IMG/VR virus record: IMGVR_UViG_3300044971_002285
Location: 1-53,387 of that record
DNA: 53,387 bases
Reading direction: 5' to 3' (one strand)
Origin: a virus
Lineage: Duplodnaviria > Caudoviricetes
The number at the start of each line of letters is the position of its first letter. The stretch's first letter is position 1. Made by a program: the position numbers and the translations under genes. The notes below the pieces were generated by a model. It saw nothing but the letters and a program-made list of their open reading frames with translations, had not been told where the DNA came from and did no database searches. Below are positions 7,813-26,819 of this stretch, one piece after another.

Positions 7813-7913
7813 CCGGAGTAGAGTTTGAAGACTGGCTAGAGGAGCTAGAGGAAGCCAAGCAGCCTAGCTGCAATATAGACAACCCCGAAGACTGCGAAGC
7901 TTGTGGCAGCTAA
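7809..7913 (+). CDS. 34-aa acidic peptide ending CNIDNPEDCEACGS (RNR alpha C-terminal tail-like)
   Basis: Own translation MTGVEFEDWLEELEEAKQPSCNIDNPEDCEACGS; ATGA coupling to upstream gene. Confidence 0.75.
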   Translation: MTGVEFEDWLEELEEAKQPSCNIDNPEDCEACGS

Positions 7914-7929
7914 TACTAAATTAGGCGAG

Positions 7930-10269: not shown

Positions 10270-10279
10270 TGGAAATTAA

Positions 10280-10516
10280 ATGGAACTTATTAGAAAAATT
10301 ATCGTTGGGCAAAACCCCAAGGATGCCATGGCGTACTTCGTCGGGCAAAAAACAGGAGACGCGGTAGTTGACTCAATCGTTCAAGATGAGCGGGCGCTTT
10401 CAATAAATGGAATTCGCAGATATCTTATCTATATTTACACCAAGGATAAGGGCATCATGCTATGGAAGACCATTGACGAAATGCCTTGTTTAATTGAACA
10501 TGATTGTGATTTTTGA
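10280..10516 (+). CDS. Conserved phage hypothetical protein (78 aa)
   Basis: IRKIIVG..KDAMAYFVGQ..LWK..MP..IE pattern; in operon. Confidence 0.75.
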   Translation: MELIRKIIVGQNPKDAMAYFVGQKTGDAVVDSIVQDERALSINGIRRYLIYIYTKDKGIMLWKTIDEMPCLIEHDCDF

Positions 10517-11160: not shown

Positions 11161-11431
11161 CAACATCGGCACCGCCAATAGGCTTATCGCCGCAATGGAG
11201 ATAGCCATCGAGAATATGATTCAGGAGATTCAGAAGCCGGTGGACCAAGAGCTATCCGGCTCACAGAGGAAGGCAGAGCTGCAGTCGATAAAGCAAACGG
11301 CGATAGACGCCAAAGAGCTTATTATAGAAAGAGAGAAGCTTCAGACCATCATAAATCAACTTCACGAACATGGGGAAATCACAGAACAAAAAGACTACTC
11401 CGGAGGGTTCGCAGAGCAATACTCTCGGTGA
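11135..11431 (+). CDS. Helical protein, possible terminase small subunit
   Basis: Immediately upstream of TerL; coiled-coil; ends GFAEQYSR. Confidence 0.5.
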   Translation: MHKSKNSFDNIGTANRLIAAMEIAIENMIQEIQKPVDQELSGSQRKAELQSIKQTAIDAKELIIEREKLQTIINQLHEHGEITEQKDYSGGFAEQYSR

Positions 11432-11483
11432 AAACTGGGTGTTCGTATACGTCACCAATCGCCCCGCCGAAAAGCCATAGACA

Positions 11484-13625: not shown

Positions 13626-16076
13626 ATGCAGAGAGATTATACATCAAAAGGCCAGTCTTCATACCCAGACCCGTTAGCGAGTACTGAGGAAAAGATGAAG
13701 CAATCCTATGGCCTTCAGTACGCTAAGGCCATGTACGCCCAGTGGATTGGTGTCGATTACGACAACTCACTCTACGGACGTAGGTTTAAGGAGATGCAGA
13801 ACAACCGAGATTATGCTCAGGGAACGCAGAACACATCAATATACCGACAGATACTTAGCTCCCTAGATGCTAACAACGGCGACGGGGCGATGCTGACATT
13901 GGACTACACCCCCGTGCCTATCATCCCGAAGTTCGTAAGGATTATCGTAAACAAAATCCTATCGCGTAAGCCATACCCACAGGTGCAGGCCATAGACCCC
14001 CTGTCAAGAAGCGAGAAGGACAAAAAGAAAAACGCCGCCGTCCTGCGCGTCGAGAACAAGGCGATGCTTCAAGAGGCTAAGTCTTTGGGGCTGTCGCTGC
14101 GTGTAGACCCAGACTCTTTACCAGACACCCCCGAGGAGACAGAAATTTTCTTGGACACCAACGTAAAGACAGACGCCGAGATTGCCGCACAGCTAGCAAC
14201 AGAGATGACGCTCACGTGGAATGACTTCGACGACGCCATCTACCGCCGCTGTATCGAGGACCTGGTGACCTGCGGTATCGCCATCATCAAAAGAACCAAC
14301 GACCCCAACTACGGAATCAAAGAGCAGTATGTGGACCCTGCGTACTTCATCCACAACTACACCGACGACCCCACCCTGTCGGACCTCACATACGCTGGGC
14401 ACTTCCGCACCGTTACCATCATGGAGCTGAAGAGGCTTGCGGGAAACCAGTTTACCGAGGAGCAATATCAGAAGATTGCCTCCACGGTAATGAACAAGTA
14501 CGGAAACGACCCGCTTCGATACACCACCCAAGGTGCTGACTACGACTCGCAGGGAAGCCGTTACCGTTATGGCTACGACGACTACAAGGTGCAGATTATG
14601 GACTTTGAGTTTATGTCTGTCGACGACATAATTTTTGAGAAGAAGACCTCCAAGTTCGGCAACATCGGGTTCTACCACAAAGGCAACAGCTACAACGCAC
14701 CCCAGCAGTCTGTATTCGACCGCGAGGCGGTGTATATGAAGAACGCAACGGTATACGGAGGGATTCTTATTGTAGGAACAGATATGCTGTTCAACTATGG
14801 GGTGCAGAAAAACATTCCCAAGAACGCCCACGATATCGCCCGCGCACGCCTCTCATATTCTGCCTCAGCAACGAACCTGCGTGGTATGATTCCAAAGTCG
14901 ATGGTCTCTAGCGTCATCGGATTCGGAGACATGCTGCAAATCACACACCTAAAGATTCAGCAGTCTATCGCTAAGGCAAAGCCGGATGGATTGATTATCG
15001 ACATCGAGGGACTTGAGAACGTACAGCTAGGCCGTGGCGGTGAGCTACAGCCACTAGAGATTCAAGATATCTACGAACAGACGGGTGTATTCTACTACCG
15101 CTCTAAGAATCCAGAAGGTGGGTTTCAGAACCCACCGATTAGAGAGATTGGAAACTCTATCCGTAACATCCAGGAACTAGTTTCACTTTACAACCACTAT
15201 CTGCGTATGATTCGTGATGCCACGGGCATCAACGAAGTGGTAGACGCGAGCACCCCAAAGGGCGATGCGTTGGTAGGAGTAAGAGAGCAGGCTATCGCCG
15301 CCTCTAACAACGCCACCTACGACATCACACATGCCGCTAAGGTGCTATATAAGAAGGTTTGTGACGATATAGTACGCTGCCTACAGGTGATACCGCCAAA
15401 GAGCGTTATATACAAGGTTTACACCAACGCCATCGGCGAGACCAATATGGCTGTTCTAAGTTCCTTTGATAACCTGTCGATGTACAACTTCGGCGTTATC
15501 GTAATGGGGGAGATGGACGACCGCGCCAAGATATACCTAGAGCAGAACATCAACATGGCGCTATCTCAAAAAGAGATTGACCTGGAGGATGCCATCGCAA
15601 TCCGACAGCTAAAAGACCCCGAGCAGGCCGAGAGATTGCTTGTGGTGCGCCGCAAAAAGCGTATGAAGTTAAGGATGGAAGAGGCATCGCAGCAGGCGCA
15701 GCTTACGGCACAGGCTAATGGCCAAGCGGCTCAAGTTGCCGCGCAGGCTAATATGCAGGCCGAGCAGTTAAAGGCTCAGCTAGAGGCGCAACGCATCCAG
15801 CTAGAGACTCAGGCAAAAGCCCAGCTTATGGAGCTTCAGCACTCTTACGATATGGAGCTGCAGGCGCTTAAAAATCAAGCTGTTATGGGTGTTGAGTCCA
15901 CACGCACCCAACTTCAGGAGGCCAATGAGGAGATGAAGGAAAACAGGAAGGACGCTAGGATAGGTAAGCAAGCCCAGGCTCAGTCTAAACTCATCGCCCA
16001 GCGTAAAGGAGAGCGTGCTGAACTGGGCGCCGAAGACCTGCGCGATGCAGAAGATATCGCCGAACTTATGCTGTAA
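13626..16076 (+). CDS. Portal protein
   Basis: 816 aa after TerL; PVPIIPKFV, TGINE..D motifs; Gln/Ala coiled-coil C-terminal barrel. Confidence 0.88.
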   Translation: MQRDYTSKGQSSYPDPLASTEEKMKQSYGLQYAKAMYAQWIGVDYDNSLYGRRFKEMQNNRDYAQGTQNTSIYRQILSSLDANNGDGAMLTLDYTPVPIIPKFVRIIVNKILSRKPYPQVQAIDPLSRSEKDKKKNAAVLRVENKAMLQEAKSLGLSLRVDPDSLPDTPEETEIFLDTNVKTDAEIAAQLATEMTLTWNDFDDAIYRRCIEDLVTCGIAIIKRTNDPNYGIKEQYVDPAYFIHNYTDDPTLSDLTYAGHFRTVTIMELKRLAGNQFTEEQYQKIASTVMNKYGNDPLRYTTQGADYDSQGSRYRYGYDDYKVQIMDFEFMSVDDIIFEKKTSKFGNIGFYHKGNSYNAPQQSVFDREAVYMKNATVYGGILIVGTDMLFNYGVQKNIPKNAHDIARARLSYSASATNLRGMIPKSMVSSVIGFGDMLQITHLKIQQSIAKAKPDGLIIDIEGLENVQLGRGGELQPLEIQDIYEQTGVFYYRSKNPEGGFQNPPIREIGNSIRNIQELVSLYNHYLRMIRDATGINEVVDASTPKGDALVGVREQAIAASNNATYDITHAAKVLYKKVCDDIVRCLQVIPPKSVIYKVYTNAIGETNMAVLSSFDNLSMYNFGVIVMGEMDDRAKIYLEQNINMALSQKEIDLEDAIAIRQLKDPEQAERLLVVRRKKRMKLRMEEASQQAQLTAQANGQAAQVAAQANMQAEQLKAQLEAQRIQLETQAKAQLMELQHSYDMELQALKNQAVMGVESTRTQLQEANEEMKENRKDARIGKQAQAQSKLIAQRKGERAELGAEDLRDAEDIAELML

Positions 16077-16097: not shown

Positions 16098-16487
16098 ATG
16101 TCATCTAGTTCTAATAATTGTAATGTCGTCGCAAACGTAAGCATAGCAACCAGGGTTGATATCGTATGTTGGCGAGGTGACACGTTTGTGCTTACCTCTA
16201 CCATTGCTGATGTAGATGGTAACGCTGTTGACCTAAGTGTTTACACTTGGAAAATGGAGGTACGAGAATATGATAATGGACCACTAGTTATTCTTAGCAC
16301 AAACATTACAATTACCGCAACAAACCTCGGTGTTCTTACTGTTACCATTAGTGCCGCAAACATGCTCGTAAACGCAGGAACCTATGTTTACGAAATTCAG
16401 GCTACAAACCCAACCCCTAACCCAGATACCGTGACTACATACTTGTATGGTCAATTCACTGTAACTCAAGATATTACTGCAAACTAA
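16098..16487 (+). CDS. Ig-like/BppU-N-like virion adaptor protein, candidate anchor for the collagen fibre
   Basis: [24 protein letters not shown] pattern; directly precedes the collagen. Confidence 0.65.
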
Positions 16488-16488
16488 A

Positions 16489-19400
16489 ATGGCTGGAGAA
16501 GTTGAAATTACCCTACCTGGACCCCTTGTCGTAGAAATTACCAACAATGGGGTTCAACAGCTCCCTGGCTCACCTGGCACCAAGGGGAGCAAGGGCGATG
16601 CTGGCCCTAAAGGCCAGAAAGGCCTTGCAGGTAAAGGAGATACTGGTGCTAAAGGAAACACCGGCCCCAAGGGAGACACTGGCGCTGGTACCAAGGGTAC
16701 CGCTGGTGCTAAGGGCACTACTGGTCCCAAAGGAGACGTCGGACCCAAGGGAGACACTGGTGCTGGCACCAAGGGTACCGCTGGCGCTAAAGGTGCCACT
16801 GGTACTAAAGGAGATGCTGGCGCTAAGGGTGCCACTGGTGCTGGTACTAAGGGTATCACTGGTCCCAAAGGAGACTTAGGTCCTAAAGGAGATGCTGGCG
16901 CTAAGGGTGCCACTGGTGCTGCTGGTAAAGGCGGTGATAAAGGAGAAACTGGTGCTAAGGGAGACCCTGGTGCCAAAGGCGCCACTGGTGCCAAAGGTTC
17001 CACTGGTGCCAAAGGTTCCACTGGTCCTAAAGGAGATACTGGTGCCGCTGGTAAAGGCGGAGACAAGGGAGAACCTGGTTCCAAAGGAGACCCTGGTGCC
17101 AAAGGTTCCACTGGTCCTAAAGGCGCCACTGGTCCTAAAGGAGATACTGGTACCGCTGGTAAAGGCGGAGACAAGGGAGAACCTGGTTCCAAAGGAGACC
17201 CTGGTGCCAAAGGTTCCACTGGTGCCAAAGGAGCTACTGGTCCTAAAGGTGAACCTGGTGCCGCCGGTAAAGGCGGAGACAAAGGAGAAAAAGGTCAAGA
17301 CGGTCTTGCTGGCGCTAAAGGGGCTACTGGCGCCAAAGGCTCCACTGGTCCTAAAGGTGAACCTGGTGTCGCCGGTAAAGGCGGAGACAAAGGAGAGACT
17401 GGCGCCAAGGGTAATACCGGTGCTGGTGCGAAAGGTACCACTGGTCCCAAAGGAGACGTTGGTCCCAAAGGAGAACCTGGTGCTGCCGGTAAAGGCGGTG
17501 ACAAAGGGGCTCCTGGCGATAAAGGAGAAAAAGGTCAGGATGGCATTGCTGGTCCCAAAGGAGCTCCTGGCGCTAAAGGCACCGCTGGTGCCAAGGGCGC
17601 CACTGGTGCCAAAGGCTCTACTGGTGCTGCTGGCAAAGGCGGAGACAAAGGGGAAGCTGGCTCTAAAGGAGAAGCTGGCCCCAAAGGAGATGCTGGTGCT
17701 AAGGGCGCCACTGGTGCCAAAGGTTCCACTGGTCCTAAAGGAGATGGTGGCCCCAAAGGAGAACCCGGCGCTGCTGGTAAAGGCGGAGACAAAGGAGAAA
17801 AAGGCCAAGACGGTGCTACTGGTGCTAAAGGTGCCACTGGCGCTAAAGGGGCTACTGGCCCCAAAGGAGACGTTGGTCCCAAAGGAGAAGCTGGCGCTGC
17901 TGGTAAAGGTGGTGACAAAGGAGAGAAAGGTCAAGATGGTTCCACTGGTGCTAAAGGTTCCACTGGCGCTAAAGGTGTCGCTGGTCCCAAAGGAGATGCT
18001 GGTGCTAAAGGAGCCACTGGTCCCAAAGGTGATTTAGGTCCCAAAGGAGACACTGGCGCCCAAGGCAAGGGCGGAGACAAAGGAGAGAAAGGTCAAGACG
18101 GTGCTACTGGCGCCAAGGGTACCGCTGGTGCTAAAGGTGCCACTGGTCCTAAAGGAGAAGTTGGTCCCAAGGGAGAGGTTGGCGTTAAAGGTGCCGCTGG
18201 TGCTAAAGGCGCTACTGGTCCCAAAGGTGATTTAGGTCCTAAAGGAGACACTGGTGCTCAGGGTAAAGGCGGTGACAAAGGAGAGAAGGGCCAAGATGGC
18301 GCTACTGGTGCTAAGGGTACCGCTGGTGCTAAAGGCGCTACCGGCCCTAAAGGAGAAGTTGGTCCTAAAGGAGATTTAGGTCCCAAAGGAGACACTGGTG
18401 CTAAAGGTGCCACTGGTCCTAAAGGAGATTTAGGTCCCAAAGGAGATACTGGTGCTCAGGGTAAAGGCGGTGACAAAGGAGAGAAGGGCCAAGATGGTGC
18501 TACTGGTGCTAAAGGCACTGCTGGTGCTAAAGGCTCTACTGGTCCCAAGGGAGACATTGGTCCCAAAGGAGATTTAGGTCCTAAAGGAGATGCTGGTGCC
18601 AAAGGCGCCACTGGTCCCAAGGGAGAAGTTGGTGCTAAAGGCGCCACTGGGCCTCAGGGACCTCAGGGAGATATAGGCCTGAAGGGCAATATTGGCGCCA
18701 CTGGCCCCAAGGGTGATTTAGGTCCCAAAGGAGACGTCGGCCCCAAAGGAGATGCTGGTGCTAAAGGAGCTACTGGCCCTAAAGGAGATTTAGGTCCCAA
18801 AGGAGATACTGGTGCCCAGGGCAAAGGCGGTGACAAAGGAGAAAAAGGTCAAGATGGTGCTACTGGCGCCAAGGGTACCGCTGGTGCTAAAGGCTCTACT
18901 GGTCCCAAAGGAGACATTGGTCCCAAAGGAGATGCTGGTGCTAAAGGTGCCGCTGGTGCTAAAGGAGCTACTGGTCCCAAGGGTGATTTAGGTCCCAAAG
19001 GAGACACTGGCGCTCAAGGTAAAGGCGGCGACAAAGGCGAGAAAGGTCAAGAGGGCCCTCTAGGCCCTCAAGGTCCCAAAGGAGACGTTGGTCCCAAAGG
19101 AGAAGTTGGTGCTAAGGGAACCACTGGTGCCAAGGGCGCTACTGGTCCTAAAGGTGACTTAGGCCCTACTGGCCCTACTGGCCCACAGGGTGCTCAGGGT
19201 AAGGGTGGCGATAAAGGAGAGAAAGGCCAAGATGGTCCTACTGGAGCACAAGGTCCCAAAGGAGACGTTGGTCCCAAAGGGGAAGTTGGTGCCAAGGGAA
19301 CCACTGGTGCTAAGGGCACTACTGGCGCGACTGGCCCTAAAGGCGACTTAGGCCCTACTGGTCCTACTGGTCCTATTGGCCCTACTGGTCCCAAAGGAGA

Positions 19401-22400
19401 TACTGGAGCCAAAGGAGATACTGGTGCCAAGGGAGCCACTGGCCCTACTGGTCCTACTGGTCCTCAAGGCGCTCAAGGTAAAGGCGGTGACAAAGGCGAG
19501 AAAGGTCAAGATGGTCCTACTGGAGCACAAGGTCCTAAAGGAGATGTTGGGCCCAAAGGAGAAGTTGGTGCTAAAGGCGCCACTGGTGCGACTGGTCCTA
19601 AGGGTGACTTAGGCCCTACTGGTCCTACTGGCCCTACTGGTCCTAAAGGAGATACTGGCGCCAAAGGAGATACTGGTGCCAAGGGCGCTACTGGTCCTAC
19701 TGGCCCTCTAGGCCCTCAAGGCCCTATTGGCCCCACTGGTCCTAAAGGAGATGCCGGCGCTAAGGGTACTGCTGGGGCTAAAGGTGCTACTGGTCCCAAA
19801 GGTGACTTAGGTCCCCAGGGTGCCCAAGGTAAAGGTGGTGACAAAGGAGAGAAGGGCCAAGATGGCCCTACTGGAGCACAAGGTCCTACTGGTCCTACTG
19901 GTCCTAAAGGAGATACTGGCGCCAAGGGAACCACTGGCGCCAAGGGTGCTACTGGTCCTACTGGCCCTACTGGTCCTACTGGCCCTCTAGGCCCTCAAGG
20001 CCCTACTGGTCCTACCGGTCCTAAAGGAGATGCTGGTGCCAAAGGTGCCACTGGTCCTACTGGCCCTACTGGTCCTCAAGGTGCTCAAGGTAAAGGCGGA
20101 GACAAAGGCGAGAAAGGTCAAGATGGCCCTACTGGCCCTCAAGGTCCCACTGGTGCTAAAGGAGCTACTGGTGCCAAGGGTAATACTGGAGCACAAGGCC
20201 CTACTGGACCTCAAGGTGCTCAAGGCGCAAAAGGTAACACTGGAGCACAAGGTCCTCAAGGTGCTCAGGGTGCTAAGGGTGCTCAAGGCGCTCAAGGCGC
20301 TACTGGACCTAAGGGTGACTTAGGTCCTACTGGACCTACTGGTCCTCAAGGTGCCCAGGGCAAAGGTGGTGACAAAGGAGAGAAGGGTCAAGAGGGCCCT
20401 CTAGGTCCTCAAGGCCCTCAAGGTCCTACTGGTGCCAAGGGTAATACTGGAGCACAAGGTCCCACTGGCCCTCAAGGAGCTCAAGGCGCAAAGGGTAATA
20501 CTGGAGCACAAGGTCCTCAAGGCGCTCAGGGTGCTCAAGGCGCTCAGGGTGCTACTGGACCTAAGGGTGACTTAGGTCCCACTGGTCCTACTGGTCCTTT
20601 AGGCCCTCAAGGTCCTATTGGCCCTACTGGTCCTACTGGTGCCAAGGGTAATACTGGAGCACAAGGTCCCACTGGTCCTACTGGTCCTCAAGGTGCTCAG
20701 GGTAAGGGTGGCGACAAGGGAGAGAAAGGTCAAGATGGCCCCACTGGTCCGCAAGGAGCACAAGGTCCTACTGGTGCCAAGGGTAATACTGGAGCACAAG
20801 GCCCTACTGGACCTCAAGGTGCTCAAGGCGCAAAGGGTAACACTGGAGCTCAAGGCCCTACTGGACCTACTGGCCCTACTGGTCCTAAAGGAGATGCTGG
20901 TGCTAAAGGCGCTACTGGCGCTCAAGGCCCTCAAGGAGCACAAGGTCCTACTGGTGCTAAGGGTAACACTGGAGCTCAAGGCGCTACTGGTCCTACTGGT
21001 CCTAAAGGAGATTTAGGTCCTACTGGTCCTACTGGTCCTTTGGGCCCTCAAGGTCCTATTGGCCCTACTGGTCCTACTGGTGCCAAGGGTAATACTGGAG
21101 CACAAGGTCCTACTGGCCCTACTGGCCCTCAAGGTGCCCAAGGTAAAGGTGGTGACAAAGGAGAGAAAGGTCAAGAAGGACCCCTAGGCCCTCAAGGCCC
21201 TCAAGGTCCTACTGGTGCCAAGGGTAATACTGGAGCACAAGGCCCTACTGGTCCTACTGGTCCTCTGGGACCTCAAGGTCCTCAAGGCGCAAAAGGTAAC
21301 ACTGGAGCTCAAGGTCCTCAGGGTGCTCAAGGCCCTAAGGGCGACTTAGGTCCCACTGGTCCTACTGGTCCTTTAGGCCCTCAAGGTCCTATTGGCCCTA
21401 CTGGTCCTACTGGTGCTAAGGGTAACACTGGAGCACAAGGTCCTCAAGGCGCTCAGGGTGCTCAAGGCGCTCAAGGCGCTACTGGACCTAAGGGTGACTT
21501 AGGTCCTACTGGACCTACTGGTCCTCAAGGTGCCCAGGGCAAAGGTGGTGACAAAGGAGAGAAAGGTCAAGAGGGCCCTCTAGGCCCTCAAGGCCCTCAA
21601 GGTCCTACTGGTCCCAAGGGTAACACTGGCGCTCAAGGTCCTGCTGGCCCTACTGGTCCTCTGGGACCTCAAGGTCCTACTGGTGCCAAGGGTAATACTG
21701 GAGCACAAGGTCCTACTGGTCCTACTGGTCCTCTGGGACCTCAAGGTCCTCAAGGCGCAAAAGGTAACACTGGAGCTCAAGGTCCTCAGGGTGCTCAAGG
21801 CCCTAAGGGTGACTTAGGTCCCACTGGTCCTACTGGTCCTTTAGGCCCTCAAGGTCCTATTGGCCCTACTGGTCCTACTGGTGCCAAGGGCAATACTGGA
21901 GCGCAAGGTCCTGCTGGACCCACTGGTCCCCTAGGCCCTCAAGGTCCTGCTGGCCCTACGGGTCCTCAAGGTGCTCAGGGTGCGAAAGGTAACACTGGAG
22001 CACAAGGTGCTCAAGGTGCTCAAGGCCCTATTGGTCCTACTGGCCCTACTGGTGCCAAGGGTAACACTGGCGCTCAAGGCCCTACTGGTCCTACTGGTCC
22101 TCAAGGTGCCCAGGGCAAAGGTGGTGACAAAGGAGAGAAGGGTCAAGAGGGCCCTCTAGGTCCTCAGGGTCCCACTGGTCCTACTGGTCCTTTGGGCCCT
22201 CAAGGTCCTGCTGGCCCTACTGGTCCTCAAGGTGCTCAAGGCGCAAAAGGTAATACTGGAGCACAAGGTGCTCAAGGCGCTCAGGGTGCTCAAGGTCCTG
22301 CTGGTCCTACTGGTCCTCTAGGCCCTCAAGGTCCTACTGGTCCTACTGGTGCTAAGGGTAACACTGGCGCACAAGGCCCTGCTGGACCTACTGGTCCTCT

Positions 22401-22908
22401 GGGCCCTCAAGGTCCTGCTGGTCCTCAAGGTCCTGCTGGCGCTAAGGGTAACACTGGAGCACAAGGCCCTGCTGGACCTACTGGTCCTCTAGGCCCTCAA
22501 GGTCCTGCTGGTCCGCAAGGAGCAAAGGGTAATACTGGAGCACAAGGCCCTGCCGGACCTACTGGTCCGCAAGGTGCTCAAGGTAAAGGTGGTGACAAAG
22601 GAGAGAAAGGTCAAGAAGGACCTCTAGGCCCTCAAGGGCCCACTGGTCCTAAGGGTAATACTGGAGCACAAGGTCCGGCTGGACCTACTGGTCCTCAAGG
22701 TGCCAAGGGTAACACTGGCGCACAGGGTCCTACTGGTGCAACTGGTGCTAAAGGCTCTACTGGTCCTACTGGAGCAGGTTCATTCACTGCTGCGGGGGCC
22801 GTGGGTATGTTTACTAGCGTTCCAGATGACTCCGGATTCACCGGACCGGAGGGATGGATAACATTCACCATAAGCGGTACTTCATACGCAGTCCCCGCAT
22901 GGAAATAA
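16489..22908 (+). CDS. Giant collagen-like fibre protein (2139 aa)
   Basis: About 2070 aa of nearly uninterrupted Gly-X-Y between short N- and C-terminal non-collagen ends. Confidence 0.95.
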
Positions 22909-22928
22909 CAGACCATACGTGATAAATA

Positions 22929-22960
22929 AGGGCGCCCCAAAAGGCGCCCTATTTGTTTTG
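22929..22960 (+). terminator. Intrinsic terminator after collagen
   Basis: AGGGCGCC-CCAAAA-GGCGCCCT followed by ATTTGTTTTG. Confidence 0.7.
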
Positions 22961-22975
22961 TGTAAGCTAAATGCC

Positions 22976-22983
22976 TATATTTG
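22976..22983 (+). promoter_or_regulatory. -7 box TATATTTG for the oxygenase/glycosyltransferase operon
   Basis: TAnnTTTG match. Confidence 0.65.
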
Positions 22984-23002
22984 ATGACTAAATTGAATTG
23001 AC

Positions 23003-23557
23003 ATGATGCTAAATGCTTTCATCGTAGACGGATTCTACGACAATCCAGATGAGGTACGTGCATTTGCCCTAGGCCAAGAGTTCAACGTAACTGGTAATTT
23101 TCCAGGTGCTAGGACGAAAAGCTTTTCTAATCAAAGCATCTTCGATACCCTTCAATCAATAGTAGGGCCTCAAGCGGGTAAAATTGATTATTATCCAGAG
23201 AACTACAACGGAGCATACCAGATAACAACAGCTAAAGACCGTTCTTGGATACACGCAGATATTGGCACAAAGTGGGCCGGCATCGTTTACCTAACCCCTA
23301 ATGCTCCATTATCTAGTGGCACTGGGTTCTTTAGACATAAGGACTCTGGACTAACATGGTCTGCTGACGGACAGGGAGATTGGAATGCAGACTCTCAGGA
23401 CATGACCAAGTGGGATTTGACAGCATCCATAGGGAACATGTACAACCGATTGATATTGTACCGCGGTAAGCAGTTTCACTCGTCTCTTGATTATTTCGGC
23501 AACAGCTTAGAAAACGGGAGACTGTTCCAGACATTTTTCTTTTCAACCGAGGAATGA
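23003..23557 (+). CDS. 2OG-Fe(II) oxygenase-fold protein (DUF6445-like)
   Basis: IVDGFYDNP, HAD (HxD), WAGIVYL, GTGFF, YNRLILY..FHS, RLFQTFF. Confidence 0.8.
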   Translation: MMLNAFIVDGFYDNPDEVRAFALGQEFNVTGNFPGARTKSFSNQSIFDTLQSIVGPQAGKIDYYPENYNGAYQITTAKDRSWIHADIGTKWAGIVYLTPNAPLSSGTGFFRHKDSGLTWSADGQGDWNADSQDMTKWDLTASIGNMYNRLILYRGKQFHSSLDYFGNSLENGRLFQTFFFSTEE

Positions 23558-25881
23558 ACGTAGTCTTTCACGTTGGTTACTACGCCACACCTTGGAACGC
23601 AACTGCTGGAATCCCCGGAGGGACAGAGCAGTGCATTGTAAACCTATCAAAACAGCTGGGCCTACTCGGTCATAATGTCTACATATATGGCAATGTATTA
23701 GAAGAAGAAATTAAATTTTCATCCGGCTCTGTTTCATTCCTGTCGCTTGGCTCTAAGGCCAAGCTCCCTGAGCTCATTGATATTCTTGTTGGAGTGTCGT
23801 ATTTACACTATCTAAAATATTTCCCCCAACAAAAGGTCGGCTCAAGAATATTTTGGCTACACAACGAGGAACCATTTTTTTGGTTTGAAGGCCAAAAAAT
23901 GTCTGATGCCGACATTGAATATGCCTTTGAAAATACTGACTTATTTGTCTGCCTTACTGATTGGCATAAATCTGATTTTCAGAAAAGACACCCTAAGACT
24001 ATTGGAAAAATCAAAGTCATTGGGAATGGAATAGATGAGCAAAAAATACACAAGACAACTCAAAAGGAAAAAAACTCCTATGTGTATACGTCTCACGCCG
24101 AGCGAGGACTTGGCACCGTGCTTGATGATTTAGAGTCGGGAAAAATATCGGGGCATCTGCATATATGTACCCCTTTGTACGGCATAAAATATTTTAACGA
24201 CCACTTCTTAGAAAGGATATCCGGGAAATCAAATGTCACATACTACGGGTCCCTGTCTACCGAACAGCTCTATTTTCTGCTCAGCAAGATGGAGAACTGG
24301 TACTACCCAACTGCCTACAACGAGACCTACTGCATTACTGCTATTGAAATGCTGGCACATGAGGTAAAGCCAATTGTAAATGCTGTTGCGGGTCTTTCTG
24401 ATACGCTTAAAGAATTTGCAAGCGATACAAGCTGCCTGGAGTGTGTAAGGAAATATGTAGAAACAAGGTGGTGGAGCAATGTTGCAAAAGAGTGGGTTTC
24501 TTTATTTTCTGAATCTACTTTTAAGAAATGGCCAAATAAAATAATTGGCCAGGCCCCAACTCATTTGCTTCAAAACATAACGTTTATTCCTAATTATGAT
24601 GTTGACCAAGTATATATAATTTCCCTATCAAGCGAGGAAGAGAATTCTAGCAAGTTAATAGAGAAATTTGCAAATTCTGGAATAAGGTCAAAATCTGTTG
24701 TGGTGTTTGACGCAACAAATGGCTATACCAATTATTTAATGCCTGAGGTTACCGTGTCAAGCTCATGGAAAATAGAGAGTGACAATAAATGGTGGAACCG
24801 CGACGTCACGCCAGGAGAAGTTGGCTGTGCCGTATCCCATTGGAGGGTGTGGAAAGATGCGCATAAAAATGGGTATAAACGAATACTGGTCCTTGAAGAA
24901 GACTTTACCGTTCTTCGTAAGTTTGACCGAGCCCAGATTGCTAAATGTGGAGAAAACTGGACCCTGTTTTTTCTGGGTCACTGCTTCATACGGCCACCCC
25001 GCCGGGACGTAACAGAAAACATTGTTGAGCCTGACTTTACCTATAATGCCCACGCATATATGCTTTCAGATGTCGGCTGTAAGCTGTTGCTAGACCAAAA
25101 TTTTGACCAATCAATAATCCCAGTAGATGAGTTTTTATCTGCTACCTTCTGCGACCACCCCCGGGGAGACTTGCAAAAAATAAATCAAACTAGTAAGGCT
25201 TTAGCACTAGTTCCTGCTATCTTTGGTCAAACAAGCAATAAAGAAACGTCTACCACCGAAAACAAACCTAAAATAAATAAAATGAACCTTTGCGACTATC
25301 CTTATGATGAATTTGTCAAGCGCTTTGTAACGTATTCCGCGCAGACTAAAGAGTGGGAGTTAATTGTTGACGAACCGATTGCTGATGTCTTTATATTTCC
25401 CTTGTTTACTGAGGAATTCTGTAGCCTGCTAATAAAGCAGGCAGAAGAATCTCAAAAATGGACTAGGAATAGGCATGCCCACTATCCCACGTGCGATATG
25501 CTAATTAACGAACTTGGACTTGCCTCTCTTTATCATAGGGTCTTGGAGGATTTTGTTTATCCTGTTGCAATCCAAAAATGGGCACTAGAGGGAAAGGAAT
25601 GGCCCACTATGTCAAGTGAAAATTTTATTATCAAATATGATAAATCCATTCAAGGCCATTTGTCGTTGCACCACGACAGCGCTTCGATATCTATGGTCCT
25701 AGCCCTTAACGAGGACTACGAAGGTGGCGGCACCTATTTCTGGAGGCAAAAGGAATTACACAAAGGAAAAACCGGATATATATCTATTCACCCTTCCGTA
25801 ATCACTCATCGACATGGAGCAAGGGCGGTGACAAAAGGTCAACGATTTGTTCTTGTATCATTCTGTAATCGCAATAAATAA
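23554..25881 (+). CDS. Three-domain fusion: GT4-like glycosyltransferase + GT25 (COLGALT-like) + PLOD-like 2OG-Fe(II) lysyl hydroxylase
   Basis: GGTE, YTSHAERGL, ETYCITAIE; DQVYIISL, RDVTPGEVGCAVSHWRVWK, LVLEEDF; DEPIADVFIFPLFTEEFC, YPTCD, FIIKY..LSLHHDSAS..ALNEDYEGGGTYF..HP..THRH..RFVLVSF. Confidence 0.88.
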   Translation: MNVVFHVGYYATPWNATAGIPGGTEQCIVNLSKQLGLLGHNVYIYGNVLEEEIKFSSGSVSFLSLGSKAKLPELIDILVGVSYLHYLKYFPQQKVGSRIFWLHNEEPFFWFEGQKMSDADIEYAFENTDLFVCLTDWHKSDFQKRHPKTIGKIKVIGNGIDEQKIHKTTQKEKNSYVYTSHAERGLGTVLDDLESGKISGHLHICTPLYGIKYFNDHFLERISGKSNVTYYGSLSTEQLYFLLSKMENWYYPTAYNETYCITAIEMLAHEVKPIVNAVAGLSDTLKEFASDTSCLECVRKYVETRWWSNVAKEWVSLFSESTFKKWPNKIIGQAPTHLLQNITFIPNYDVDQVYIISLSSEEENSSKLIEKFANSGIRSKSVVVFDATNGYTNYLMPEVTVSSSWKIESDNKWWNRDVTPGEVGCAVSHWRVWKDAHKNGYKRILVLEEDFTVLRKFDRAQIAKCGENWTLFFLGHCFIRPPRRDVTENIVEPDFTYNAHAYMLSDVGCKLLLDQNFDQSIIPVDEFLSATFCDHPRGDLQKINQTSKALALVPAIFGQTSNKETSTTENKPKINKMNLCDYPYDEFVKRFVTYSAQTKEWELIVDEPIADVFIFPLFTEEFCSLLIKQAEESQKWTRNRHAHYPTCDMLINELGLASLYHRVLEDFVYPVAIQKWALEGKEWPTMSSENFIIKYDKSIQGHLSLHHDSASISMVLALNEDYEGGGTYFWRQKELHKGKTGYISIHPSVITHRHGARAVTKGQRFVLVSFCNRNK

Positions 25882-26480
25882 TGAATCTTAATCCCACATT
25901 CCCAAAAGAAAACGGTCCAGACATGACCGGTTGGTACTTTTTTGAGGCTGCCTTTAGCCCCCTAGAAGTTGTTCAAATCAAAAATGAATTGGCTACCATC
26001 CCCTTTCACAGGGCGCAAATTGCCAGTAATGCCGAGGGCGATGCTCTTGATGTTGTAAGGAAATCAAATATAAAATGGATTCCTAAAAACGAAACACACG
26101 GGTGGCTCTATGACCGGCTCATGCAGTATATGTCCATTGCCAATAACAACCTGTGGCATTTTAATCTTGAGTCTATTCTTGATTCAATACAATACACGCA
26201 ATACCACGGAAACGAAAAGGGTTTTTACGGGTGGCACATGGATATCGGACCACAGGAATTGGCATTTAGAAAGCTCTCCCTTGTTGTCCAACTTAGCAAC
26301 CCTTCCGACTACTCGGGTGGGGACCTTCAAATACGTTCAGGCCATGGCGAAGCAACAGTTTCAAAAACTCAAGGTACGGTAATTGTTTTTCCATCATATC
26401 TGCTTCATCAGGTGACGCCTGTTACCGGTGGACTTCGAGAGTCTCTAGTGCTTTGGTCGGGGGGCAACAGCTATAAATAG
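25881..26480 (+). CDS. 2OG-Fe(II) oxygenase, prolyl-4-hydroxylase/PKHD-type
   Basis: YGWHMD, RKLSLVVQLS, YSGGDL, VFPSYLLHQVTPVTGGLRESLVLW. Confidence 0.88.
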   Translation: MNLNPTFPKENGPDMTGWYFFEAAFSPLEVVQIKNELATIPFHRAQIASNAEGDALDVVRKSNIKWIPKNETHGWLYDRLMQYMSIANNNLWHFNLESILDSIQYTQYHGNEKGFYGWHMDIGPQELAFRKLSLVVQLSNPSDYSGGDLQIRSGHGEATVSKTQGTVIVFPSYLLHQVTPVTGGLRESLVLWSGGNSYK

Positions 26481-26485
26481 TCTGT

Positions 26486-26493
26486 TATCTTTG
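26486..26493 (+). promoter_or_regulatory. -7 box TATCTTTG, 5 nt before ATG
   Basis: TAnnTTTG match. Confidence 0.65.
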
Positions 26494-26498
26494 CCTAT

Positions 26499-26819
26499 AT
26501 GGCAAATGAGACAGACATTCTAAAGAGATACGGTCTTTCTGGCTTTAGCAAGCCTAAAAAAACCCCATCACACCCAACGAAGAAGGGCATCGTTGCCGTC
26601 AAGATAGACGGTCGCCCTCGTATTATTCGTTTTGGTGACCAGAATATGGGGCACAACTATAGCCCCGAGGCACGCAAGTCATTCAAAAGTCGCCATGCGA
26701 AGAACATAGCCCGAGGCCCTGTTAGTCCAGCATACTGGGCTAACAAATTCTTTTGGGGTGGCTCCGCCGCTGACAAGAAGATGCCGCCAAAGTCTCAAAA
26801 ATATACCAGAGGAATCTGA
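26499..26819 (+). CDS. Small basic conserved phage protein
   Basis: IRFGDQ..RKSFKSRH..SPAYWA pattern. Confidence 0.8.
   Translation: MANETDILKRYGLSGFSKPKKTPSHPTKKGIVAVKIDGRPRIIRFGDQNMGHNYSPEARKSFKSRHAKNIARGPVSPAYWANKFFWGGSAADKKMPPKSQKYTRGI

What the first reader, a model, noticed from the sequence alone, without database searches (positions are those of the whole stretch)
23554..25881. Unusual GT4-GT25-lysyl-hydroxylase triple fusion
Seen: the C-terminal ~190 aa (IVDEPIADVFIFPLFTEEFC..YPTCD..FIIKY..QGHLSLHHDSAS..ALNEDYEGGG..HP..THRH..RFVLVSF) follows, motif by motif, the PLOD3 catalytic domain as I recall it (EQPCPDVYWFPL, VPTVD, FVVRY, HHDSST, DYEGGG, HPGRLTH, RYIMVSF). The middle (DQVYIISL..RDVTPGEVGCAVSHWRVWK..LVLEED) parallels the COLGALT GT25 domain (DEVFMINL..RPLTKGELGCFLSHYNIWK..LVFEDD). 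Inference: it unites activities that animals split between LH and COLGALT, and the GT-B domain may add a second sugar. This bears on the evolutionary origin of collagen-modifying enzymes.
Basis: partly seen in the sequence, partly recalled or inferred. Interest (0 to 1): 0.88.

Follow-up and report, generated by a model that had tools for sequence, protein, structure and literature searches.

The report
Phage enzyme for glycosylating its collagen fibre
A freshwater phage encodes one protein that joins a collagen-type lysine hydroxylase to two sugar-adding domains, right beside a giant collagen-like fibre gene full of target lysines, which suggests bacterial viruses carry out a collagen modification known so far only from animals and giant viruses.

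Summary
ORF 23554-25881 (775 aa) has three confidently folded domains. The first is a retaining-type GT-B glycosyltransferase. The second is a GT25 domain closest to the catalytic lobe of human COLGALT1 (E 2e-15). The third is a lysyl-hydroxylase domain closest to mimivirus L230 and human LH3 (E 1e-20, TM 0.85), with Fe/2OG ligands invariant in 41 of 41 homologues.

Directly upstream lies a 2139-aa collagen-like protein of 687 Gly-X-Y triplets, with Lys at Y 201 times and at X 25 times.

The fusion is not rare: IMG/VR holds 341 relatives. In 62 of the 80 fetched loci a Lys-at-Y collagen gene sits just upstream on the same strand. T4-like carriers keep theirs about 12 kb away.

Related forms exist (GT-B+LH; GT25+PLOD-GT+LH) and are also linked to collagen genes.

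My reading (about 0.65): a self-contained enzyme hydroxylates Y-lysines of the phage's own fibre and glycosylates the hydroxylysines. Sugar identity and the order of the two transfers are unresolved, and no biochemistry exists. I found no paper describing this.

It is a new variant of a known kind (viral LH-GT enzymes such as L230). The claim about evolutionary origins could not be tested.

The parts
16098..16487 (+). p129, a small conserved protein between the portal and collagen genes (function unknown; possible fibre anchor or adaptor)
   Evidence: phrog_1084, E 2.7e-18. tblastn homologue in 49 of 80 related loci, always between portal and collagen.
16489..22908 (+). 2139-aa collagen-like fibre protein, the proposed substrate. 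26-aa N-terminal non-collagen part, 687 Gly-X-Y triplets, 42-aa C-terminal tip.
   Evidence: 687 triplets in 6 runs; K at Y 201 and at X 25; P at X 248 and at Y 12. It is the only Gly-X-Y ORF in the window. N-terminus is conserved and C-terminal tips are swapped among relatives. Two alternative tips are Peptidase_S74 chaperone domains.
22929..22950 (+). Terminator-like G+C hairpin with T-run directly after the collagen stop codon
   Evidence: 8 pairs, 7 of them G-C, then ATTTGTTTTG. Terminator-like sites are not enriched in the region overall (14 found, 15.5 expected).
22976..22983 (+). TATATTTG box 20 nt upstream of the DUF6445 start (candidate Bacteroidota-type -7 promoter element; the element's identity is recalled)
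   Evidence: The motif is not enriched window-wide (43 found, 36 +/- 5 expected).
23003..23557 (+). DUF6445 protein (184 aa), a probable third 2OG/Fe(II) oxygenase of the cassette
   Evidence: Pfam DUF6445, E 1e-10. Invariant H84-x-D86, H159 and R173 in 11 of 11 homologues. Low-confidence model (pLDDT 65.5) whose listed Foldseek hits are all Fe/2OG dioxygenases at E about 1e-5. Its stop codon overlaps the fusion's start (ATGA).
23554..24519 (+). Fusion domain 1 (residues 1-322): retaining-type GT-B (GT4-like) glycosyltransferase
   Evidence: Block pLDDT 82-96. Foldseek hits: BH4 alpha-glucosyltransferase 9v0l, alpha-1,2-glucosyltransferase 7fg9, retaining MshA 3c4q, glycogen synthases. E257 and E265 (E-x7-E) are invariant in 41 of 41.
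24520..24591 (+). Disordered linker 1 (residues 323-346)
   Evidence: pLDDT below 50.
24592..25266 (+). Fusion domain 2 (residues 347-571): GT25 domain like the catalytic C-lobe of COLGALT1
   Evidence: E448 in 40/41, D450 in 38/41, D525 in 39/41, E/D at 526 in 41/41. The COLGALT1 acceptor residues W495, R354 and K470 are not conserved.
25282..25878 (+). Fusion domain 3 (residues 577-775): PLOD/L230-type lysyl hydroxylase domain
   Evidence: 6ax6_B TM 0.85, rmsd 2.5 A, 29% identity. H706, D708, H754, Y695 and R764 are 41/41. Predicted homodimer through I750/W676/I712.
25881..26480 (+). 199-aa PKHD/P4Hc-type 2OG oxygenase, a proposed prolyl hydroxylase for X-position Pro
   Evidence: Pfam 2OG-FeII_Oxy_3, E 6e-13. 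PDB PKHD-type hydroxylase 3dkq, E 3.7e-11. Its presence tracks X-Pro content of the neighbouring collagen. Its start overlaps the fusion's stop.

Best explanation
The 775-aa protein is a phage-encoded, self-contained enzyme that modifies collagen lysines. It acts in the infected cell's cytoplasm on the phage's own 2139-aa collagen-like fibre protein, which is encoded just upstream. Step 1 (inferred from homology and context): the C-terminal Fe(II)/2-oxoglutarate domain, probably as a tail-to-tail dimer like L230 and LH3, hydroxylates Lys at the Y position of Gly-X-Lys-Gly. There are 201 such sites per chain. Step 2 (inferred): the GT25 domain, an inverting Mn-dependent GT-A with its EED and DE motifs intact, transfers a hexose from a UDP-sugar to the new 5-hydroxyl group. 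Step 3 (inferred, least certain): the N-terminal retaining GT-B domain adds an alpha-linked sugar. That sugar either goes onto the first sugar (the analogue of Glc-alpha1,2-Gal-Hyl, which I favour at about 60:40) or directly onto other hydroxylysines. The product would be a heavily glycosylated, roughly 0.6-micrometre trimeric virion fibre with a conserved N-terminal anchor and an exchangeable distal tip. Two flanking small oxygenases (DUF6445 and a PKHD-type enzyme) probably modify other residues of the same fibre. Shown here: domain identities, conservation of catalytic residues, conserved synteny and substrate composition. Not shown: any enzyme activity, the sugar identities, or the fibre's place on the virion.
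For: Domain identity: L230 and LH3 at E about 1e-20; COLGALT1 at E about 2e-15; Foldseek 6ax6_B TM 0.85 and rmsd 2.5 A, LH3 E 2e-19, COLGALT1 E 2e-15, and retaining GT-B enzymes E 1e-12 to 1e-13 on a model with pLDDT 88.7.

Catalytic residues, defined in passages of PMC5802723 and PMC12987934 and mapped through the alignments: H706/D708/H754/Y695/R764 in 41/41; E448 40/41; D450 38/41; D525 39/41; E/D526 41/41; E257 and E265 41/41.

Substrate: the adjacent ORF has 687 triplets with K at Y 201 and at X 25.

Synteny: 62 of 80 IMG/VR loci have a collagen-like ORF of at least 15 triplets upstream on the same strand, with KX 0-1 and KY up to 279. Of the other 18, 8 have under 2.5 kb of upstream sequence and 10 belong to a T4-like clade. 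Two of three T4-like records of that clade hold Gly-x-Lys collagen genes about 12 kb upstream on the same strand, and the third is a 28%-complete fragment.

GT-B+LH relatives: 15 of 17 loci have the same upstream collagen. A GT25+PLOD-GT+LH relative has a 454-triplet collagen ORF (K at Y 108) 3.7 kb upstream.

GT-B does not depend on Thr: it persists where Y-Thr is 0-4% (L016, L025, L034, L054, L057, L060).

Fibre nature: conserved N-terminus, swapped C-terminal tips, Peptidase_S74 at E 8e-19 and 4.5e-14.

LH homodimer: score 0.43, best of 3 controls 0.00. That mark was reached by 20 of 30 proteins solved as pairs and 1 of 23 solved as single chains. Runs agree in at least 95% of contacts and partner pLDDT is at least 90. 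The interface pairs I750 with W676 and I712, the equivalents of L230's L873 and its pocket residues Y798 and Y831. L230 and LH3 dimers are solved, so the pass may only reflect that likeness.

RNA-library contigs of four studies cover 15-28 of 30 bins of the locus at 90-99% identity. This is weak evidence because DNA carry-over is not excluded.
Against: No biochemical data exist for any member.

Three COLGALT1 acceptor-side residues are not conserved. W495 (the paper reports that W495A abolishes activity) is N in 23 of 41 and never W. R354 is variable. K470 falls in a gap. The GT25 acceptor may therefore differ from free Hyl.

GT-B+LH forms without any GT25 within 10 kb (17 of 17 loci) show that GT25 is dispensable. 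They argue that GT-B may be the sugar-transferring domain nearest to Hyl.

GT-B-only relatives in cellular genomes lie next to collagen-like genes whose Y positions are Thr/Gln-rich (L102 at 3 nt, L119 at 202 nt, L098 at 674 nt). That fits Thr-O-glycosylation.

Bacterial chromosomal GT-B+LH genes (L083-L087) have no collagen ORF within 10 kb, and L083 sits in ordinary metabolic context. The LH domain is therefore not always next to collagen.

Pfam's GT4 model is below its cut-off in this protein.

Three of 41 members have lost D450 and two have lost D525.

The 80 loci include many near-duplicates; they reduce to about 41 distinct collagen profiles.
Confidence: 0.65

Rival explanations
1. Same substrate protein, different chemistry. 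The LH domain makes hydroxylysine and one GT domain glycosylates it, but the GT-B domain starts an independent O-glycan on Thr/Ser of Gly-X-Thr triplets (recalled: as on the BclA-type collagen-like exosporium proteins of Bacillus). It does not extend the Hyl-linked sugar.
For: The window's collagen has Thr at Y 192 times. GT-B-only relatives in bacteria sit 3-674 nt from collagen-like genes whose Y positions are dominated by Thr/Gln and not Lys (L102, L119, L098). [quoted passage not shown]
Against: The GT-B domain, with invariant E-x7-E, persists in phage loci whose collagen has only 0-4% Thr at Y. It is always fused to LH in these phages. Lys at Y is the one constant of all neighbouring collagens (7-56% of triplets).
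Confidence: 0.15
2. The glycosyltransferase domains act on host envelope glycans (LPS or capsule), as phage GTs are usually annotated, and the LH-like domain hydroxylates some other target. On this reading, the position beside the collagen gene reflects the structural-module layout and not a substrate relationship.
For: Pfam names GT25 an 'LPS biosynthesis protein', and source annotations call relatives 'GR25 family glycosyltransferase involved in LPS biosynthesis'. PMC7029224 (passages) interprets pelagimyophage GTs as O-chain modifiers. COLGALT1 acceptor residues W495, R354 and K470 are not kept. Chromosomal bacterial GT-B+LH genes lack collagen neighbours.
Against: The GT25 domain is far closer to COLGALT1 (E 2e-15) than to the solved bacterial GT25 (E 2.4e-3). 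It keeps E526, the equivalent of the residue that anchors the Hyl epsilon-amine. It is covalently fused to a collagen-type LH. The collagen link recurs in podophage-type and T4-like genomes and in three different fusion architectures. K is confined to the Y position, the LH/COLGALT site.
Confidence: 0.07
3. Order reversed within the main model. The retaining GT-B domain glycosylates hydroxylysine directly (recalled: as L230's own GT domain makes Glc-Hyl), and the GT25 domain extends that sugar.
For: GT-B+LH is the minimal recurrent unit: 17 of 17 loci have no GT25 within 10 kb, and the L159 type has no other GT gene between the collagen gene and the neck genes. GT25 lacks the Hyl-stacking Trp of COLGALT1.
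Against: The GT25 catalytic base and the Hyl-amine-anchoring Glu are conserved. In the parallel family GT25+PLOD-GT+LH the domain set matches the animal pathway, where GT25 acts first (PMC12987934 and PMC12003778 passages).
Confidence: 0.25

Closest known systems
Acanthamoeba polyphaga mimivirus L230 (bifunctional lysyl hydroxylase and glycosyltransferase; structures 6ax6, 9nev)
   Same: A virus-encoded enzyme that joins a C-terminal collagen-type LH domain to glycosyltransferase activity and acts on virus-encoded collagen-like protein. It is the best sequence and fold match to the LH domain. The Fe triad, 2OG ligands and dimer residue are equivalent.
   Different: L230 is from a giant virus of amoebae and has one GT domain of the PLOD GT-A type. 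The phage protein has no PF25342 PLOD-GT domain. It carries a GT-B domain plus a GT25 domain, infects bacteria, and sits in an operon with its substrate.
Human LH3/PLOD3 with COLGALT1/GLT25D1 (complex 8zgc)
   Same: The same three chemical functions are expected: Lys hydroxylation, an inverting GT25 transfer to Hyl, and a retaining second transfer. The LH and GT25 domains are homologous (E 2.7e-20 and 2e-15), with EDD/DE-type catalytic motifs kept.
   Different: In animals these are two separate ER-lumen proteins. COLGALT1 has an extra non-catalytic N-lobe and LH3 has GT-A and accessory domains, none of which are present here. The retaining step would be done by an unrelated GT-B fold. COLGALT1 acceptor residues W495, R354 and K470 are not conserved.
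Unnamed metagenomic GT25 + PLOD-GT + LH fusions (P0262, P0269, P0285, P0291, P0297, P0313, P0181)
   Same: GT25 and LH lie in one chain. The LH domain is 36-49% identical to this one. One viral locus (L163) has a Lys/Thr-rich collagen ORF 3.7 kb upstream.
   Different: The domain order is GT25 first, and a PLOD-type GT-A domain (PF25342, E down to 6.5e-78) takes the place of the GT-B domain. I found no publication on these either.
Bacillus BclA-type glycosylated collagen-like proteins (recalled; the review PMC8968730, passages, mentions bacterial collagen glycosylation)
   Same: A microbial surface fibre made of a Gly-X-Y stalk with a C-terminal globular tip, glycosylated by dedicated GTs.
   Different: Those glycans are on Thr and no hydroxylysine is involved. 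No LH or GT25 enzyme takes part.
Mycobacteriophage virion glycosylation by phage-encoded GTs (seen only as search listings)
   Same: Phage-encoded glycosyltransferases modify the phage's own virion proteins.
   Different: No collagen, no hydroxylation step and no GT25/LH domains. I did not read these papers.

Membership tests
Collagen lysyl hydroxylase (PLOD / L230-type LH domain) | Double-stranded beta-helix domain whose nearest solved relatives are LHs | tested here: met
   Only L230 and LH3 chains match this region at E<=1, at 1.2e-20 and 2.7e-20. Foldseek 6ax6_B: TM 0.85, rmsd 2.5 A.
Collagen lysyl hydroxylase (PLOD / L230-type LH domain) | Fe(II) triad His-x-Asp...His (L230 H825/D827/H877) and 2OG ligands (Y814/R887), per PMC5802723 | tested here: met
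   H706/D708/H754 and Y695/R764 by the alignment. All are 41/41 in A1.
Collagen lysyl hydroxylase (PLOD / L230-type LH domain) | LH-specific tail-to-tail dimer: Leu (L873) inserted in an aromatic pocket (Y798/Y801/Y831) | tested here: inconclusive
   I750 (I 39, V 2 of 41) and W676 (W/F/Y in 41/41) are conserved, but the Y831 equivalent is I712 and the Y801 equivalent is uncertain. The predicted homodimer scores 0.43 against 0.00 for the best control and uses exactly these residues. It may be recalled from solved LH dimers.
Collagen lysyl hydroxylase (PLOD / L230-type LH domain) | Hydroxylates peptidyl Lys in X-Lys-Gly | not testable with these tools
   Context only: the neighbouring collagen has K at Y 201 times against 25 at X.
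PLOD multidomain architecture (PLOD GT domain + accessory + LH) | N-terminal PLOD-type GT-A domain (Pfam PF25342) | tested here: not met
   No PF25342 hit in the window protein at E<=0.01. The same model hits other metagenomic LH proteins at E 1e-46 to 1e-78.
GT25 / COLGALT catalytic domain | Pfam Glyco_transf_25 above its gathering score | tested here: met
   48.6 bits against a cut-off of 24, residues 352-459. Also over the cut-off in the six-frame search.
GT25 / COLGALT catalytic domain | EDD motif (E435/D436/D437, Mn ligand) and DE motif (D522 base, E523), per PMC12987934 | tested here: met
   E448 40/41; E449 (E 26, D 14, Q 1); D450 38/41; D525 39/41; position 526 E 33, D 8.
GT25 / COLGALT catalytic domain | Acceptor-side residues for Hyl-Gly: YW motif (W495), R354, K470 | tested here: not met
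   Y497 is kept (34/41). The W495 position is N 23, T 5, L 5, C 3, Q 2, G 2, E 1, with no W. The R354 position is variable. K470 lies in an alignment gap.
GT25 / COLGALT catalytic domain | Two-lobe COLGALT architecture with a non-catalytic N-terminal GT-A lobe | tested here: not met
   The alignment covers only the C-lobe of COLGALT1 (chain residues about 339-536). The phage N-terminus is a GT-B fold.
GT4-like retaining GT-B glycosyltransferases | GT-B two-Rossmann fold resembling retaining GT4/GT5 enzymes | tested here: met
   Foldseek E 1e-12 to 1e-13, target TM 0.58-0.65 to 9v0l, 7qsg, 7fg9, 3c4q ('retaining glycosyltransferase MshA') and 5zer.
GT4-like retaining GT-B glycosyltransferases | Pfam GT4 / Glycos_transf_1 models above their cut-offs | tested here: not met
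   PF13439 scores 25.4 against 28.5 and PF00534 scores 16.1 against 26.4 in the window protein. Relatives do pass: L159 PF13439 30.3 bits, L146 PF13692 39.6 bits.
GT4-like retaining GT-B glycosyltransferases | E-x7-E motif in the C-terminal Rossmann domain (the motif definition is recalled, not taken from a call) | tested here: met
   E257 and E265 are invariant, 41/41.

The most novel reading that the evidence does not exclude
Tailed phages of aquatic bacteria carry a complete, modular toolkit for modifying collagen, keyed to particular residues. LH plus one to three GT domains serves Y-Lys. A PKHD-type oxygenase appears only where X-Pro is abundant. DUF6445 appears where Y-Gln is abundant, which would be a collagen modification with no known counterpart. 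On this reading, hydroxylysine-linked glycosylation is widespread in bacterial viruses. The fused GT25-LH proteins would then be living examples of the single-chain ancestor state that structural papers have speculated about for the animal LH3/COLGALT1 pair.
Probability: 0.2. Interest if true: 0.9.

Novelty: new variant of a known kind. Interest (0 to 1): 0.77.

Why it matters
The review I read in passages (PMC8968730) treats hydroxylysine glycosylation as an animal collagen modification, with mimivirus cited as the viral precedent. It says prokaryotic collagen-like proteins mostly lack hydroxylation and glycosylation.

If this reading is right, hundreds of bacteriophage lineages make Hyl-glycosylated collagen fibres about half a micrometre long. 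They would do it with a single soluble cytoplasmic enzyme encoded next to its substrate.

That would give collagen biochemists a compact bacterial-expression system for site-specific Hyl glycosylation of recombinant collagens.

It would give phage biologists a new class of modified host-recognition fibre.

It would also supply natural fused intermediates (GT-B+LH, GT-B+GT25+LH, GT25+PLOD-GT+LH) for the open question in the COLGALT1 structure paper (PMC12003778): whether the LH and COLGALT enzymes share an ancestor.

Tried and rejected
DNA-level search of the phage collection found only two 95-140-nt matches, so there is no close cultured relative. Protein search of that collection found only partial matches: GT25+2OG in Synechococcus phages at 26-28% identity, and LH only in Roseobacter phage CRP-6.

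I first called the phage 'marine'. I drop that, because its DNA is held by lake and freshwater runs.

Scans with the GT25+LH protein P0103 and with P0285 found no viral loci, so I could not examine those architectures' neighbourhoods. P0181 gave only two loci, one with too little flank.

I meant the 46 GT-B-only cellular loci as a neutral base-rate control. It failed as a control, because 8 of 46 hold collagen-like ORFs, some directly adjacent. I have no neutral base rate for collagen ORFs in viral contigs.

The covariation of DUF6445 with Y-Gln, and of the PKHD-type oxygenase with X-Pro, rests on only 4 independent contrasts each (same way in 3.7-3.9 on average, opposite in 0, sign test p 0.125). 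It is not significant. The L065-L081 clade (Y-Gln 34-40%, no DUF6445 found) contradicts the first pattern. L062 and L065 (oxygenase present, PX 1 and 8) deviate from the second.

DUF6445 has no PDB sequence match, and its model is of low confidence (pLDDT 65.5). The tool warns that fold matches to a low-confidence model may be meaningless.

TAnnTTTG is not enriched window-wide, and neither are terminator-like sites.

Domain-wise phylogeny with metazoan PLOD/COLGALT was not done. The searches return phage and metagenome proteins first, the ten long hits I looked up carry no organism names, and PDB sequences are not stored proteins.

Parts of the locus lack RNA-contig cover in some runs. I draw nothing from those gaps.

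Paper supplements were closed. The supplementary alignments and BLAST taxonomy figures of PMC5802723 and PMC12003778 may bear on whether bacterial or phage homologues were already noted there.

Not-in-print claim: it rests on searches, on a library that lacks most subscription journals.

Full report
OBSERVATION. ORF 23554..25881 (+, 775 aa) exists as described.

Pfam finds Glyco_transf_25 at residues 352-459 (48.6 bits, cut-off 24) and an OGFOD2-like segment at 586-672 (35.2 bits, cut-off 31). It also finds sub-threshold GT4 and Glycos_transf_1 signals in residues 21-288.

Against all PDB sequences, the C-terminus matches only mimivirus L230 (E 1.2e-20) and human LH3 (E 2.7e-20). The middle matches COLGALT1 (E 1e-14 with the whole protein; 1.6e-15 to 2.3e-15 with the domain alone). 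That is far better than a bacterial GT25 structure (2.4e-3) or mimivirus R655 (0.083). The N-terminal 325 residues have no significant PDB sequence match. The GT4 call needed a structure model.

STRUCTURE AND CATALYTIC RESIDUES. I built an AlphaFold2 model on an alignment of 41 full-length homologues at 33-81% identity (A1). Its mean pLDDT is 88.7. It has three folded domains separated by disordered linkers at 323-346 and 572-576, and a pTM of 0.48, so the arrangement between domains is not defined.

Foldseek against PDB returns full-length LH3 (E 2e-19), COLGALT1 (E 2e-15) and L230 (target TM 0.85, rmsd 2.5 A, 29% identity). For the N-terminal domain it returns retaining GT-B enzymes: BH4 alpha-glucosyltransferases, alpha-1,2-glucosyltransferase tll1591, MshA and glycogen synthases, at E 1e-12 to 1e-13.

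Defining residues came from passages of the L230 structure paper (PMC5802723) and the GLT25D1 cryo-EM paper (PMC12987934). I mapped them through the printed alignments. The COLGALT1 numbering offset checks out at L348, R354, E435-D437, K470, Y494/W495 and D522/E523.
- LH domain: the Fe triad H706/D708/H754 and the 2OG ligands Y695/R764 are invariant in 41 of 41. The dimer-leucine equivalent I750 is I in 39 and V in 2.
- GT25 domain: E448 40/41, D450 38/41, catalytic base D525 39/41, and the Hyl-amine-anchoring position 526 is E or D in 41/41. The Hyl-stacking Trp (W495) is never Trp (N in 23 of 41), R354 is variable, and K470 lies in a gap.
- GT-B domain: E257 and E265 (an E-x7-E pair, which I recall as the GT4 hallmark) are 41/41.

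All three domains look catalytically competent. The acceptor pocket of the GT25 domain differs from the human enzyme.

THE NEIGHBOURHOOD. The window is an IMG/VR viral record of 53,387 bp, about 91% complete. The gene order is:
- terminase (11484-13586)
- portal (13626-16076)
- p129
- a 2139-aa ORF (16489-22908)
- DUF6445
- the fusion
- a 199-aa 2OG oxygenase
- two small proteins
- an acidic 367-aa protein, presumably the scaffold
- a capsid-type structural protein
- an SU10-type adaptor

The capsid protein is 29-31% identical to those of podophages of Flavobacterium, Cellulophaga and Maribacter.

The 2139-aa ORF is collagen-like, with 687 Gly-X-Y triplets in six runs. Lys is at Y 201 times and at X 25 times. 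Pro is at X 248 times and at Y 12 times. Y-position Lys followed by Gly is the site used by LH and COLGALT1 (PMC12987934 passages). Using a rise per residue of about 0.29 nm (recalled), the helix would be roughly 0.6 micrometres long.

A strong hairpin with a T-run follows the collagen stop codon. A TATATTTG box precedes DUF6445. The DUF6445/fusion and fusion/oxygenase junctions overlap. The three enzyme genes therefore look like one translationally coupled unit.

HOW GENERAL IS IT. The 90%-identity protein collection holds 164 hits, more than 100 of them full-length fusions down to 32% identity, mostly on contigs of phage size. IMG/VR holds 341 relative-encoding stretches, and 80 loci were fetched.

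In 62 of the 80 loci an ORF with at least 15 Gly-X-Y triplets lies upstream on the same strand. K is at X 0-1 times and at Y up to 279 times. Of the 18 loci without one, 8 have less than 2.5 kb of upstream sequence. The other 10 belong to one clade at about 36% identity, which sits in T4-like myophage context (Gp23, T4 portal, PhoH, sheath).

I searched the whole records of three members of that clade. Two hold Gly-x-Lys collagen genes about 12 kb upstream on the same strand. The third is a 28%-complete fragment with none. Many loci are near-duplicates, and they reduce to about 41 distinct collagen profiles.

The module portal-p129-collagen-(DUF6445)-fusion-(oxygenase)-p106-p125-scaffold-capsid is conserved; portal was found in 48 of 80 loci and p129 in 49 of 80.

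Among representative genomes of 185,579 prokaryotic species, only 9 of 55 loci go beyond the GT-B domain. Two are full fusions on short Flavobacteriaceae MAG contigs. Five are GT-B+LH genes in Rhodobacteraceae, Granulosicoccaceae and Chromatiales. One is LH only, and one is an Aquimarina GT25+LH region that contains stop codons. Of these nine, only L090 has a collagen ORF nearby, and L083 lies in ordinary chromosomal context.

A FAMILY OF ARCHITECTURES. The LH-domain searches revealed GT-B+LH proteins of about 560 aa and GT25+LH proteins of about 490 aa. They also showed 2209 representative clusters at E<=1e-3.

GT-B+LH loci are T4-like. In 15 of 17 they follow a Lys-at-Y collagen ORF and a PKHD-type oxygenase; the other two have under 0.6 kb of upstream sequence. 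None has GT25 within 10 kb. Some have a GT2 gene in between. The L075 clade has collagen, oxygenase, GT2 and then the triple fusion.

Seven of the ten long LH-bearing proteins I scanned have GT25 followed by the PLOD-type GT domain (PF25342) and LH. That is, in effect, COLGALT fused to a full PLOD. One viral locus of that family has a 454-triplet collagen ORF (Y: Thr 232, Lys 108) 3.7 kb upstream.

So LH plus a retaining GT is the recurrent core. GT25 or GT2 are add-ons, and the number of GT domains per cassette varies from one to three.

ACCESSORY OXYGENASES. The 199-aa protein matches PKHD-type hydroxylases (3dkq, E 3.7e-11). Among 41 distinct collagen profiles it is present in all with X-Pro of at least 19. 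It is absent in all with X-Pro of 12 or less, including loci that have Y-Pro. The exceptions are L062 (truncated ORF) and L065.

DUF6445 has invariant H-x-D, H and R in 11 of 11 sequences. Its low-confidence model hits only Fe/2OG dioxygenases. It is present where Y-Gln is 12-35% and absent in podophage-type loci with 0-7%. It was not found in the L065-L081 clade, where Y-Gln is 34-40%.

On a tree of the fusion protein each trait changes 4 times. The matching residue moves the same way in 3.7-3.9 of 4 independent contrasts and never the other way. With only 4 pairs the sign test gives p 0.125. These patterns are leads, not findings.

THE SUBSTRATE IS A VIRION FIBRE. Among podophage-type relatives the collagen ORFs share a conserved 26-50-aa N-terminus and have unrelated C-terminal modules of 27-477 aa. 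Two of the C-terminal types carry the Peptidase_S74 intramolecular-chaperone domain (E 8e-19 and 4.5e-14), which I recall as typical of trimeric phage fibres and spikes.

In the T4-like genomes the cassette lies directly upstream of the gp15-like and sheath genes. In the window it follows the portal gene. Attachment at the neck or portal is my inference from these positions.

DIMER, EXPRESSION, HABITAT. Two copies of the LH domain are predicted to bind. The score is 0.43 and the best of 3 controls is 0.00. That mark was reached by 20 of 30 proteins solved as pairs and 1 of 23 solved as single chains. The runs agree in at least 95% of contacts and partner pLDDT is at least 90. The interface pairs I750 with W676 and I712 of the other copy, which are the equivalents of L230's L873 and its pocket residues Y798 and Y831. 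LH dimers are solved, so this shows likeness and does not prove binding.

Twelve DNA runs from 10 studies, beyond two possible source runs, hold at least half of the sampled words. All are labelled lake-water or freshwater metagenomes.

Contigs from four metatranscriptomic libraries (four studies) cover 28, 27, 20 and 15 of 30 bins at 90-99% identity. Pieces bridge the DUF6445/fusion junction (X15, X16, X18) and the fusion/oxygenase junction (X16). The tool notes that RNA libraries can contain DNA, so transcription is suggested but not shown.

MECHANISM AND RIVALS. My best reading is that the LH domain hydroxylates Y-Lys of the unfolded fibre chains, the GT25 domain puts a hexose on Hyl, and the GT-B domain adds an alpha-linked sugar. 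For 'GT25 first' speak the conserved base and amine anchor, and the animal-like GT25+PLOD-GT+LH family. For 'GT-B first' speak the GT25-less GT-B+LH cassettes and the missing Trp.

A real alternative is that GT-B glycosylates Thr. Relatives of the GT-B domain in bacteria sit 3-674 nt from Thr/Gln-rich collagen-like genes. Yet GT-B stays in phage cassettes whose collagens have 0-4% Thr at Y. Action on host LPS is the conventional annotation, but it does not explain the fusion to LH or the recurrent collagen linkage.

NOVELTY. Eight full-text searches found no description of a phage LH-GT25 fusion or of hydroxylysine in phage fibres.
- Iyer et al. 2010 (passages) predicted that bacterial beta-hydroxylases and sulfotransferases modify collagen-like proteins. 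They did not predict PLOD-type or GT25 enzymes.
- The COLGALT1 paper (passages) reports BLAST hits in giant viruses and bacteria and raises a common-ancestor question.
- The protein atlas auto-names some phage clusters 'lysyl hydroxylase...', so automatic annotation has already seen the LH likeness.

I class this as a new variant of a known kind, namely viral LH-GT collagen-modifying enzymes such as L230.

LIMITS. No biochemistry exists. No neutral base rate for collagen ORFs is available. No tree with named eukaryotic sequences was built. The look-up of encoding contigs and paper supplements were closed. Several motif definitions (E-x7-E, the S74 role, the Bacteroidota -7 box, the collagen rise per residue) are recalled.

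Noticed in passing
window 23003-23557; loci L002-L081: DUF6445 (invariant H-x-D, H and R; probable 2OG oxygenase) is present where the neighbouring collagen has Gln at 12-35% of Y positions. It is absent in podophage-type loci with 0-7% Y-Gln. There are 4 independent contrasts, none opposite, p 0.125. The L065-L081 clade (Y-Gln 34-40%, no DUF6445 found) is an exception. Possible Gln-directed modification.
   Followed up: partly
window 25881-26480; loci L002-L081, L145-L161: The PKHD/P4Hc-type oxygenase is present in every locus with X-position Pro of at least 19, and absent where X-Pro is 12 or less, even if Y-Pro is present. Exceptions are L062 and L065. This suggests a prolyl hydroxylase for X-position Pro, unlike animal collagen P4H (recalled to act at Y).
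   Followed up: partly
P0262, P0269, P0285, P0291, P0297, P0313, P0181; L163:1135-6258 and 10001-11863: A second, unnamed metagenomic family fuses GT25 + PLOD-type GT (PF25342) + LH, which is COLGALT and a full PLOD in one chain. In viral locus L163 a 1707-aa collagen-like ORF (Y: Thr 232, Lys 108) lies 3.7 kb upstream.
   Followed up: partly
L102:1966-2463, L119:6449-11902, L098:11748-12956, L113:6782-8272: Bacterial relatives of the GT-B domain alone (21-28% identity) lie 3 nt to 1.7 kb from collagen-like genes. These are mostly Thr/Gln-rich at Y; L113 has K at Y 37 times in 83 triplets. This GT-B lineage may be a general glycosyltransferase for collagen-like proteins.
   Followed up: partly
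L145-L161 (e.g. L159:910-6483, L146:191-10354): T4-like myophages on contigs up to 178 kb carry collagen, a PKHD-type oxygenase, optionally a GT2, then GT-B+LH, directly upstream of the gp15-like and tail-sheath genes. I recall that position as the one of T4's whisker gene wac.
   Followed up: partly
collagen ORF ends in L009, L012, L013, L016, L028, L033, L054-L060 and window 22780-22905: The collagen fibres share a conserved N-terminus but carry at least five unrelated C-terminal tip modules (27-477 aa). These include Peptidase_S74 chaperone domains and a ~145-aa module with a weak BclA_C hint (E 0.061). This looks like tip swapping in a host-recognition fibre.
   Followed up: partly
L083:9992-11662: A GT-B+LH gene sits in a 3.5-Mb Aliishimia MAG chromosome among FAD oxidoreductase, VTT-domain and histidine-kinase genes, with no collagen ORF within 10 kb. 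Its substrate is unknown.
   Followed up: partly
L089:4439-6307: The GT25+LH match in Aquimarina sp. RZ0 translates with 5 stop codons. It may be a pseudogene or several frames. I did not read it through.
   Followed up: no
alignment A1 columns for residues 448, 450, 525: A few full-length family members have lost GT25 catalytic residues (D450 to G in 2 and N in 1; D525 to G in 1 and N in 1; E448 to S in 1). The GT25 domain may be inactive in some lineages.
   Followed up: no
window 6624, 8982, 13597, 16086, 22976, 26486, 27235, 30743, 37314: TAnnTTTG boxes lie 12-30 nt upstream of many + strand late-gene starts, although the motif is not enriched window-wide (43 found, 36 +/- 5 expected). This is compatible with a Bacteroidota host (recalled promoter type).
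   Followed up: partly
window 22700-26600: The phage's DNA is held by lake-water and freshwater metagenome runs of at least 10 studies, so it is a freshwater phage, although many relatives come from other aquatic samples.
   Followed up: partly
window 7903-8511: A 202-aa SAM-methyltransferase-like protein (Methyltransf_24, E 2.6e-7) lies in the early/middle region.
   Followed up: no
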